A program made the position numbers and the translations under genes. A stretch of DNA of 64,000 nt from Eledone cirrhosa (taxonomy: Eukaryota), in contig OZ024743.1 of NCBI GenBank assembly GCA_964016885.1, positions 253,890,001 through 253,954,000 on the forward strand. Reading direction: 5' to 3'. Below the pieces are notes generated by a model that made no database searches, was not told the DNA's origin, and saw only the letters and a list, made by a program, of their open reading frames with translations. Shown in pieces: positions 31,757-34,117 of this stretch; position 1 is the first letter of the stretch; the number at the start of each line of letters is the position of its first letter.

Positions 31757-34117
31757 GAATATAGACATAGAATATTCGAAAATATTCTGTATGTTTATAA
31801 TAAACATTTTGAAGACCTAATCGCTATAGAATAGAATACGTCACGTATTACAATTAGATTCTCGATAAAAGCAAGGGAAGTAATCTACGCGTTTCATTCT
31901 TGTTAGAAATCATCAGGACTACATATCCAGTGCTTTTATCGAGAATGACACAGCTAGAGACTTATAGAATACTTAGCTGTGTACAGGAACTGGTTTGAAA
32001 GAGCGGTTGCCGGTCCGGCAGAAATTAGAAATTGGAATAAATGCTCTGAAATAGCGATATATATGTGAATATAGACATAGAATATTCGAAAATATTCTGT
32101 ATGTTTATAATAAACATTTTGAAGACCTAATCGCTATAGAATAGAATACGTCACGTATTACAATTAGATTCTCGATAAAAGCAAGGGAAGTAATCTACGC
32201 GTTTCATTCTTGTTAGAAATCATCAGGACTACATATCCAGTGCTTTTATCGAGAATGACACAGCTAGAGACTTATAGAATACTTAGCTGTGTACAGGAAC
32301 TGGTTTGAAAGAGCGGTTGCCGGTCCGGCAGAAATTAGAAATTGGAATAAATGCTCTGAAATAGCGATATATATGTGAATATAGACATAGAATATTCGAA
32401 AATATTCTGTATGTTTATAATAAACATTTTGAAGACCTAATCGCTATAGAATAGAATACGTCACGTATTACAATTAGATTCTCGATAAAAGCAAGGGAAG
32501 TAATCTACGCGTTTCATTCTTGTTAGAAATCATCAGGACTACATATCCAGTGCTTTTATCGAGAATGACACAGCTAGAGACTTATAGAATACTTAGCTGT
32601 GTACAGGAACTGGTTTGAAAGAGCGGTTGCCGGTCCGGCAGAAATTAGAAATTGGAATAAATGCTCTGAAATAGCGATATATATGTGAATATAGACATAG
32701 AATATTCGAAAATATTCTGTATGTTTATAATAAACATTTTGAAGACCTAATCGCTATAGAATAGAATACGTCACGTATTACAATTAGATTCTCGATAAAA
32801 GCAAGGGAAGTAATCTACGCGTTTCATTCTTGTTAGAAATCATCAGGACTACATATCCAGTGCTTTTATTCCAATTTCTAATTTCTGCCGGACCGGCAAC
32901 CGCTCTTTCAAACCAGTTCCTGTACACAGCTAAGTATTCTATAAGTCTCTAGCTGTGTCATTCTCGATAAAAGCACTGGATATGTAGTCCTGATGATTTC
33001 TAACAAGAATGAAACGCGTAGATTACTTCCCTTGCTTTTATCGAGAATCTAATTGTAATACGTGACGTATTCTATTCTATAGCGATTAGGTCTTCAAAAT
33101 GTTTATTATAAACATACAGAATATTTTCGAATATTCTATGTCTATATTCACATATATATCGCTATTTCAGAGCATTTATTCCAATTTCTAATTTCTGCCG
33201 GACCGGCAACCGCTCTTTCAAACCAGTTCCTGTACACAGCTAAGTATTCTATAAGTCTCTAGCTGTGTCATTCTCGATAAAAGCACTGGATATGTAGTCC
33301 TGATGATTTCTAACAAGAATGAAACGCGTAGATTACTTCCCTTGCTTTTATCGAGAATCTAATTGTAATACGTGACGTATTCTATTCTATAGCGATTAGG
33401 TCTTCAAAATGTTTATTATAAACATACAGAATATTTTCGAATATTCTATGTCTATATTCACATATATATCGCTATTTCAGAGCATTTATTCCAATTTCTA
33501 ATTTCTGCCGGACCGGCAACCGCTCTTTCAAACCAGTTCCTGTACACAGCTAAGTATTCTATAAGTCTCTAGCTGTGTCATTCTCGATAAAAGCACTGGA
33601 TATGTAGTCCTGATGATTTCTAACAAGAATGAAACGCGTAGATTACTTCCCTTGCTTTTATCGAGAATCTAATTGTAATACGTGACGTATTCTATTCTAT
33701 AGCGATTAGGTCTTCAAAATGTTTATTATAAACATACAGAATATTTTCGAATATTCTATGTCTATATTCACATATATATCGCTATTTCAGAGCATTTATT
33801 CCAATTTCTAATTTCTGCCGGACCGGCAACCGCTCTTTCAAACCAGTTCCTGTACACAGCTAAGTATTCTATAAGTCTCTAGCTGTGTCATTCTCGATAA
33901 AAGCACTGGATATGTAGTCCTGATGATTTCTAACAAGAATGAAACGCGTAGATTACTTCCCTTGCTTTTATCGAGAATCTAATTGTAATACGTGACGTAT
34001 TCTATTCTATAGCGATTAGGTCTTCAAAATGTTTATTATAAACATACAGAATATTTTCGAATATTCTATGTCTATATTCACATATATATCGCTATTTCAG
34101 AGCATTTATTCCAATTT
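31757..34117. mobile_element. Putative non-LTR retrozyme: tandem 310-bp HHR-containing monomers in two divergent arms (3.6 copies minus-sense, 4 copies plus-sense)
   Basis: Unit starts at 31757, 32067, 32377 and 32687. Strand switch at 32865-32869 (TTTAT microhomology). One type I HHR per unit, no ORF, and (TA)n on both flanks. Confidence 0.9.
32985..33025 (+). ncRNA. Type I hammerhead ribozyme (also at +310, +620 and +930; minus-strand copies at 31881, 32191, 32501 and 32811)
   Basis: TAGTC-CTGATGA-T-TTCT-aaca-AGAA-T-GAAA-CGCG-TA^-GATTA. Stem I is extended by ATTCTCGATAAAAGCA / TGCTTTTATCGAGAAT. Confidence 0.88.

What the first reader, a model, noticed from the sequence alone, without database searches (positions are those of the whole stretch)
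31757..34117. Candidate retrozyme: palindromic array of identical 310-nt hammerhead-ribozyme monomers
Seen: about 7.6 apparently identical 310-bp units with no ORF. Each has a complete type I HHR (CUGAUGA / GAAA, palindromic stem III ACGCGU, GUA cleavage triplet). Stem I continues into a 16-bp helix, and further hairpins are present (ACACAGCTA/TAGCTGTGT, AATACGT/ACGTATT, ATGTTTAT/ATAAACAT, AGAATATT/AATATTCT, GCCGG/CCGGC, ATAGCGAT/ATCGCTAT). The arms point away from each other, join at a 5-nt microhomology, and sit in (TA)n. Known: metazoan non-LTR retrozymes are tandem monomers of a few hundred nt with type I HHRs that yield circular RNAs, and short palindromic stem III favours dimeric cleavage. 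Inference: this is a very recent rolling-circle reverse transcript of a 310-nt viroid-like circRNA, inserted by PLE machinery. The family may be undescribed.
Basis: partly seen in the sequence, partly recalled or inferred. Interest (0 to 1): 0.92.

Follow-up and report, generated by a model that had tools for sequence, protein, structure and literature searches.

The report
Hammerhead retrozyme with Penelope insertion footprint
A 310-letter self-cutting-RNA repeat has recently spread through this animal genome as back-to-back arrays whose two ends always stop at the same two points, the mark left by Penelope-like jumping genes, which gives sequence-level support to the so far indirect idea that those elements copy such RNAs into DNA.

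Summary
In detail: two exact arms of a 310-nt unit (3.59 copies on -, 4.04 on +), a 5-nt junction overlap, (TA)n flanks and a type I hammerhead motif per unit (below Rfam's threshold; U·U under stem II; stem III closes only between two units). It is one of over a thousand young arrays (16,522 exact unit hits). New here: in 63 of 63 two-armed arrays one outer end lies at unit position 125-139 and the other at 165-170. This 26-37-nt offset matches the Penelope-like element (PLE) 'tail', tied in vitro to two reverse-transcription start sites. Two PLE families of this genome show it too. Both arms share a haplotype in 40 of 42 arrays, and fixed variants spare the ribozyme core. Verdict: a new non-LTR retrozyme family very probably inserted by PLE machinery priming twice on one RNA. 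A monomeric circle is the likeliest template but is unproven: mirrored variants in two arrays point to mixed multimers. Cleavage, circles and the partner PLE are untested. The scan noted a ribozyme-free tandem element with PLE-type ends in another genome (e1-7881736).

The parts
31756..32869 (-). Left arm, 3.59 exact units; sense RNA runs leftwards; four hammerhead motifs (predicted cuts between 32816/32815, 32506/32505, 32196/32195, 31886/31885)
32865..34117 (+). Right arm, 4.04 exact units; four hammerhead motifs (predicted cuts after 33020, 33330, 33640, 33950)
32865..32869 (.). Central 5'-to-5' junction, 5-nt overlap TTTAT (unit position 257 of the left arm joined to 155 of the right arm)
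33021..33330 (+). Reference monomer, cut site to cut site (unit positions 1-310), 34% GC, non-coding
32984..33026 (+). Type I hammerhead motif: stem I 32984-32989/33021-33026, CUGAUGA 32990-32996, U·U 32997/33010, stem II 32998-33009 with loop AACA, GAAA 33011-33014, palindromic stem III, GUA ending 33020
   Evidence: sequence; cleavage not tested
32961..33048 (+). 16-bp helix extending stem I, with the ribozyme at its tip
31756..31765 (-). Outer end A (short end, unit position 130), next to the AUAUAUAU stretch at unit positions 132-139
34081..34117 (+). 'Tail': unit positions 131-167, present only at the right end; finishes at outer end B in the longest predicted single-stranded stretch of the circle
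31676..31755 (.). Left (TA)n target flank
34118..34147 (.). Right (TA)n target flank
11703..16779 (.). Comparison element, not part of the array: Neptune-type PLE insertion (RT plus GIY-YIG-type C-terminus, frame 13407-16250) with an inverted 5'-truncated left arm, a 55-nt tail on that arm only (11703-11757) and (TA)n on both sides

Best explanation
A young non-autonomous non-LTR retrozyme that parasitises a Penelope-like element (PLE). Steps: (1) arrays are transcribed (inferred). (2) Neighbouring hammerheads pair through the palindromic stem III and cut out 310-nt monomers, which are ligated to circles and at times to multimers (inferred from published retrozymes and from selection on the core). 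(3) The PLE protein binds the RNA and its GIY-YIG endonuclease cuts both strands of a (TA)n tract (target shown; enzyme inferred). (4) One target 3' end starts cDNA at unit position about 130-139 and the other at about 165-167 of the same unit (positions and one-of-each pairing shown; priming inferred). (5) Each reverse transcriptase reads on through several units, usually round one monomeric circle, and stops at a variable place (multi-unit arms, shared haplotype and scattered 5' ends shown; circle inferred). (6) The two cDNA ends are joined by microhomology or short fill-in, giving a back-to-back array with a tail at one end (junctions shown). My odds: PLE insertion 0.9, active ribozyme 0.8, monomeric circle as the usual template 0.6.
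For: Ends: 48 of 48 divergent end pairs listed on the first 170 Mb of contig C1 are A+B, none A+A or B+B (p = 7e-15 against 0.5). 63 of 63 two-armed arrays among 72 examined are A+B, 22 of them not chosen for both ends. Genome-wide the two junction types are about equally common: 1,240 A and 628 forward B (reverse hits are mostly listed twice). Site B has only 2-3 nt of match to (TA)n, so homology alone does not pick it (sequence). The same short/long rule holds in 16 of 17 Hydra-type PLE pairs by my reading and in the window's own PLE. Literature: inverted 5'-truncated copy, 30-40-bp tail at one end, (TA)n targets (PMC8557442); the tail lies between two reverse-transcription start sites and both target strands are cut and extended (PMC11167929). 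Template: both arms share the majority haplotype in 40 of 42 arrays (shuffled mean 6.2, maximum 15); 14 of 28 array-fixed variants occur in one array only; 4 of 126 arm 5' ends lie within 10 nt of the cut site, about 8 expected. Ribozyme: 10 of 10 fixed substitutions in the hammerhead are tolerated types, against 41 of 129 possible; no fixed but 3 sporadic variants hit the core. The hammerhead core shares 26 of 28 nt with that of a Hydra-type PLE terminal repeat.
Against: No cleavage, RNA or circle was observed. Rfam score is far below threshold. In Xenopus 8 of 9 predicted retrozyme dimers did not cleave in vitro (bioRxiv 10.64898/2026.07.22.740005), and ribozyme mutants did not impair insertion by the anole PLE. 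Array L159 switches haplotype at the same unit in both arms and L059 carries a single-unit variant mirrored in both arms, which one monomeric circle cannot give. L072 has arms that differ in part. Over the whole unit, disruptive variants are 5 of 25 fixed against 35 of 85 sporadic, p = 0.06 only. Outside the ribozyme there is no clear similarity to either PLE terminal repeat (p = 0.44, 0.05, 0.79), and their tails are longer (about 66 and 43-58 nt), so the partner is not identified. 9 of 72 arrays have one arm only.
Confidence: 0.7

Rival explanations
1. Same PLE-driven double priming, but the template is an uncleaved or re-ligated linear multimer transcribed from an older array; the hammerhead is slow or incidental and no monomeric circle is copied.
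For: Mirrored haplotype switch in L159 and mirrored single-unit variant in L059. Ribozyme cleavage is not needed for the anole PLE in vitro. Non-autonomous PLE derivatives with multicopy head-to-tail insertions exist in Chlamydomonas (PMC8557442). Stem II is weak.
Against: 66 of 80 testable non-fixed variant observations are not mirrored (some may be sequencing errors, so this is weak). 14 variants are fixed through all units of one array only, which needs a frequent one-unit bottleneck. Fixed variants spare the core. Arms reach 27 units.
Confidence: 0.22
2. A short PLE-type insertion of one or two units that later grew in place as satellite DNA by unequal exchange, the route proposed by Li et al. 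2026.
For: A 7-unit block recurs within array L035b, and some variants recur within one arm. Discussed in bioRxiv 10.64898/2026.07.22.740005.
Against: Both arms are usually multimeric and share a haplotype, with sporadic divergence of only 4e-4 per bp. Over a thousand dispersed arrays each have their own central junction and fresh (TA)n ends. The mirrored switch in L159 predates insertion.
Confidence: 0.04
3. Twin priming by an L1- or other LINE-type enzyme, or repair of a break with cDNA.
For: Twin priming gives the same outward-facing geometry (recalled, not checked by a call); LINE fragments are common in this genome.
Against: No poly(A) or other 3' tract; both starts are internal, fixed and complementary in type; both arms cover the same sequence; the two PLE families show the same rule.
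Confidence: 0.03
4. Assembly or library artefact (fold-back reads, collapsed repeats).
For: Palindromes and long (TA)n tracts are hard to assemble; no long reads were examined; one array (L054) appears duplicated.
Against: 16,522 unit hits; unique, different flanks; a one-of-each end rule that fold-back chemistry would not give; contigs of run X2 show the end-A junction and the A295G variant at about 25% of depth, against 19 of 72 arrays. X2 may be the source sample, so it may not be independent of the specimen.
Confidence: 0.01

Closest known systems
Metazoan non-LTR retrozymes (Cervera and de la Pena 2020, PMC7229834), above all axolotl HHR_Amex2/Rtz_353
   Same: Tandem non-coding units of a few hundred nt, under 50% GC, one type I hammerhead each, highly paired predicted circle, thousands of copies, co-existing PLEs. 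A U·U at the base of stem II as in HHR_Amex2.
   Different: Different sequence (no comparison with their sequences was run). The main text does not mention inverted arrays, tails or microsatellite targets (supplement not readable). They showed cleavage and circles; neither is shown here.
Penelope-like element insertions with inverted terminal repeat and tail (Craig 2021, PMC8557442; Frangieh 2024, PMC11167929)
   Same: Inverted 5'-truncated second arm, 30-40-nt extension at one end, (TA)n target, two fixed internal start sites.
   Different: No ORF; both arms are multimers of a 310-nt unit. The tail is described there as optional or frequent, whereas here the two ends are strictly one of each.
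Retrozymes as non-autonomous PLE derivatives (Li, Clavereau, Pollet 2026, bioRxiv 10.64898/2026.07.22.740005)
   Same: Conclusion that PLEs mobilise retrozymes; similarity between retrozyme and PLE terminal repeat (here limited to the ribozyme core).
   Different: Their evidence is co-occurrence and Xenopus homology, and they suggest local amplification to tandems. 'Tail' and 'junction' do not occur in the text. Here the evidence is the insertion footprint, and arrays look multimeric at birth.
Non-autonomous Chlamys PLEs such as MRC1 (PMC8557442)
   Same: Non-coding PLE passengers, often multicopy head-to-tail.
   Different: They resemble their autonomous partner at the 3' end and most Chlamys lack hammerheads; this unit has one and matches no partner outside it.
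Hammerhead viroids and viroid-like RNAs
   Same: Size, paired circular fold, hammerhead.
   Different: Ribozyme motif in one polarity only; genome-encoded in over a thousand arrays; no evidence of RNA-to-RNA replication.

Membership tests
Non-LTR retrozyme | Tandem units of about 150-450 bp, non-coding, GC under 50% | tested here: met
   310 nt, 34% GC, longest ATG ORF 30 aa
Non-LTR retrozyme | Type I hammerhead motif in at least two consecutive units | tested here: met
   Motif in all 8 complete positions by direct reading; core spared by fixed variants; Rfam only sub-threshold
Non-LTR retrozyme | Dispersed multi-copy family without LTR architecture | tested here: met
   16,522 unit hits; 72 arrays mapped, unit sequence from end to end apart from one 272-nt insert. 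PBS and PPT were not searched for separately
Non-LTR retrozyme | Self-cleavage in vitro | not testable with these tools
   needs a bench assay
Non-LTR retrozyme | Expression as linear and circular monomer RNA | not testable with these tools
   no run on record as RNA was available to test it
PLE-mobilised element | Inverted 5'-truncated second arm | tested here: met
   63 of 72 arrays two-armed with scattered 5' ends
PLE-mobilised element | 30-40-nt tail at one end only | tested here: met
   ends at 125-139 and 165-170, one of each in 63 of 63 and 48 of 48
PLE-mobilised element | (TA)n target bias (Neptune, Hydra, Naiad) | tested here: met
   flanks printed; AT-rich but not (TA)n in L034
PLE-mobilised element | End sequence shared with an identified autonomous partner | tested here: inconclusive
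   26 of 28 nt of the ribozyme core shared with a Hydra-type family; nothing significant at the ends; no intermediate found; only two of several PLE families compared
Autonomous PLE | ORF with RT and GIY-YIG endonuclease | tested here: not met
   no ORF in the unit
Hammerhead viroid (Avsunviroidae-like) | Hammerheads in both polarities | tested here: not met
   no CUGANGA in the antisense
Hammerhead viroid (Avsunviroidae-like) | No DNA form; RNA-to-RNA replication | tested here: not met
   integrated DNA arrays; RNA replication itself not testable here

The most novel reading that the evidence does not exclude
The arrays are fossils of twin-primed rolling-circle reverse transcription: a dimeric PLE protein holds one 310-nt circular RNA, sets each strand of a cut (TA)n site on one of two fixed start points about 35 nt apart, and both reverse transcriptases circle the same RNA, displacing each other's product. 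The PLE tail and inverted repeat would then be the obligatory result of two enzymes on one template, and this RNA a minimal cargo for PLE integration.
Probability: 0.5. Interest if true: 0.8.

Novelty: new variant of a known kind. Interest (0 to 1): 0.64.

Why it matters
That PLEs mobilise animal retrozymes has rested on shared ribozymes, co-occurrence and some homology; the papers read call the mechanism open. This family carries the PLE insertion footprint in over a thousand very young copies. Its haplotypes also mark which RNA each arm was copied from. That yields two testable points: the two PLE start sites are used one per target strand, on one RNA species, and arrays are born as multimers instead of growing later. 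It offers a 310-nt substrate with mapped start sites for the existing in vitro PLE assay, and a way to ask whether a circular RNA is the retrotransposition template. The element class itself is known, which caps the score.

Tried and rejected
Rfam at the gathering score: no hammerhead in the window. DNA search of the own genome: no match because common words are skipped; patterns were used instead. My first hammerhead scanner missed the array because it required a pair at the base of stem II. Partner search: no significant alignment of the unit outside the ribozyme with the Hydra-type or Neptune-type terminal repeats; a search for intermediate ribozymes gave 59 hits, which by their matched letters look like point variants of the two known families (their loci were not read through). 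Pfam gave only a weak RT hit for the Neptune-type protein and nothing for two Hydra-type ones, so clade names rest on motifs read against PMC8557442 (DKT, RWR, CxCX5C; CX4CxxC), with no tree. Sequencing runs: no RNA holder listed. Raw Hi-C reads X24 gave 0 reads, which is no test. Constrained folding returned an invalid energy; energies come, and pairings outside the ribozyme are predictions. Seven apparent second arms were an artefact of the internal helix and were dropped before counting (70 to 63). Nine arms with the same artefact at their 5' end were left out of the 5'-end test. About six junctions were mis-parsed. Whether a donor array with the L159 unit order exists elsewhere remains open. 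The 272-nt insert in L037 matched nothing among fetched loci. PMC5785218 on dimeric cleavage was not held. A taxon-oriented paper search gave nothing relevant.

Full report
Observation. The array is as described. All units match the monomer 33021-33330 exactly; the - arm covers 31756-32869 and the + arm 32865-34117, with a 5-nt overlap and (TA)n on both sides. Each unit has a type I hammerhead motif on top of a 16-bp helix. It is atypical in two ways: a U·U under stem II, also reported for axolotl HHR_Amex2 (PMC7229834), and a stem III that can pair only between two units. Rfam does not call it (best 19.2 bits against 52). The circle is more stable than shuffles (z = -4.9), as is its antisense (z = -4.2), and the motif is in one polarity only.

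Family. A 32-nt ribozyme pattern has 4,584 exact hits and a conserved 28-nt pattern 16,522, about 5 Mb of a 3.0-Gb genome; the reversed controls gave 0. I mapped 72 arrays: the window's and 71 from the first 170 Mb of contig C1. The 135 arms average 4.9 units (maximum 27); sporadic substitutions are 4.1e-4 per bp, so the family is very young.

The end rule. Outer ends fall at two places: A (unit position 125-139) and B (165-170). Junction patterns give 1,240 A ends and 628 forward B ends, with reverse hits mostly listed twice. Among 74 A and 74 B ends listed, 48 divergent pairs lie within 20 kb and 48 of 48 are A+B; 52 ends were unpaired. I fetched 20 of those 52: 13 were two-armed, all A+B with variant letters near the other end, and 7 were single-armed. 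Overall 63 of 63 two-armed arrays are A+B; 41 were chosen as pairs and 22 were not; 9 arrays have one arm, one of them cut by a gap (after dropping 7 false arms). Inner ends are scattered: 4 of 126 within 10 nt of the cut site, mildly non-uniform overall (p = 0.02). 33 of 63 junctions are blunt or overlap (mean 2.8 nt against 0.76 by chance); the rest have inserts or were mis-parsed.

This is the PLE footprint. Craig et al. describe an inverted 5'-truncated copy, a 30-40-bp tail at one end and (TA)n targets (PMC8557442; passages and the Hydra section read). Frangieh et al. show that an anole PLE cuts and extends both target strands, starts at two internal sites that bound the tail, and is predicted to be a dimer (PMC11167929; main text read). 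The window's own Neptune-type PLE (11703-16779) has an inverted arm, a tail on one arm only and (TA)n flanks (4,610 hits of its end; about 99% identical to full-length tandem copies). A Hydra-type family (10,325 ribozyme hits; ORF downstream) shows short+long ends in 16 of 17 pairs by my reading; the script classed 11 and one pair is long+long. Its ribozyme core shares 26 of 28 nt with the retrozyme's, but nothing else aligns significantly. The partner is therefore unidentified; the Hydra-type family is my best guess for the ribozyme's origin.

Template. In 40 of 42 arrays with at least two units per arm, both arms have the same majority haplotype out of 18 (shuffled mean 6.2, maximum 15 in 20,000), and 14 of 28 array-fixed variants occur in a single array. 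This needs a frequent one-unit bottleneck followed by re-multimerisation, as copying round a circle would give. One locus dominating the RNA pool of a cell could also explain shared haplotypes. Against a circle-only model, L159 starts both arms with two units of one haplotype and then switches in both to another, and L059 has a single-unit variant at the same offset in both arms; 14 of 80 testable observations are mirrored, all in L059, L072 and L159. These cases show both primers starting in the same unit of one RNA species, and that the RNA is at times a mixed multimer.

Selection. All 10 fixed substitutions in the ribozyme are at position 7, loop II, the U·U (one makes it A-U) or keep a pair, against 41 of 129 possible changes (p about 1e-5 if treated as independent). 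At predicted pairs, fixed variants keep 8 and break 5, sporadic ones keep 9 and break 32 (p = 0.014); the whole-unit test gives p = 0.06. This suggests a working ribozyme, but 8 of 9 Xenopus dimers failed to cleave in vitro.

Other data. 20 of 24 listed runs, from 16 studies under 17 organism labels, hold most words of the unit. I laid 4: X2 holds it at great depth with variants and the end-A junction; X1 and X19 each hold one 340-nt contig that closes on itself at depth 12-17, which a tandem repeat and a circle would both give; X24 gave no reads. Trace carry-over of a very abundant repeat is the simplest reading; it is untested.

Mechanism and odds are given under Best explanation (0.7 overall). 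Shown: structure, copy number, target, end rule, haplotype sharing, spared core. Inferred: transcription, cleavage, ligation, the enzyme, priming and the circle.

Novelty. Non-LTR retrozymes are known (PMC7229834; parts 2-4 of 6 read plus a term search), and a 2026 preprint argues that they derive from PLEs (10.64898/2026.07.22.740005; parts 1-3 of 5 read plus a term search). I found no report of inverted arrays or tails in retrozymes in five paper searches or in passages of two reviews and a curation guide. The library lacks most subscription papers, the 2020 supplement could not be read and the preprint's supplements are closed; these may bear on the claim. The scan had no note on this sequence but noted a ribozyme-free tandem element with PLE-type ends elsewhere (unchecked). 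That PLE reverse transcriptases lack RNase H, which would let two enzymes share a template, and the L1 twin-priming geometry are recalled, not checked. Verdict: new variant of a known kind, interest 0.64.

Noticed in passing
window 11703-16779: Young Neptune-type PLE insertion: inverted 5'-truncated arm, 55-nt tail on the left arm, atypical hammerhead-like motif near 16528. Full-length tandem copies with a 4,147-bp period lie in L111, where the frame is in two pieces.
   Followed up: partly
L091 (two units), also L007/L008, L050, L069, L089, L099, L123: A second, older and more diverged retrozyme-like family, unit about 426 nt, with the same ribozyme layout (U·U under stem II, 4-nt loop II, palindromic stem III, GUA). 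Copies end in (TA)n at more than one position; L089 is back-to-back. Weak similarity to the 310-nt unit outside the ribozyme (p = 0.03).
   Followed up: partly
L113-L148; window 42948-44393, 9374-10657, 35564-35989, 57684-58178: Abundant Hydra-type PLEs; one family has over 10,000 ribozyme hits, many as tiny back-to-back insertions under 200 bp. At least six further hammerhead families appear in the fetched loci.
   Followed up: partly
L159:5886-6520 and its left arm: Both arms switch haplotype at the same unit counted from the outer end, so the template was a chimeric multimer or both enzymes changed template together.
   Followed up: partly
L037:2599-2870: A 272-nt GC-richer foreign sequence sits between the two arms, probably captured during joining; no match among fetched loci.
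   Followed up: partly
L035/L036 (G000:C1:43586900-43593790): Two variants recur at a 7-unit spacing in a 19-unit arm: later block duplication or a multimeric template.
   Followed up: no
unit positions 274-310 and 1-6 (window 32984-33026): 12 of 28 array-fixed variants, including the four commonest, crowd into the 43-nt ribozyme while the rest of the unit varies little; possibly tuning of cleavage rate.
   Followed up: no
runs X1, X19, X11/X24: The near-identical unit is held under 17 organism labels; two laid runs have only a low-depth self-closing contig. Carry-over is likelier than a mobile RNA, but neither was tested.
   Followed up: partly
window 11550-11660: A near-perfect hairpin of about 110 nt beside the PLE, perhaps another tiny back-to-back insertion.
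   Followed up: no
window 1-7015 and 11097-11168: A 7-kb G/T-rich degenerate minisatellite and a weak tRNA-like match (39 bits).
   Followed up: no
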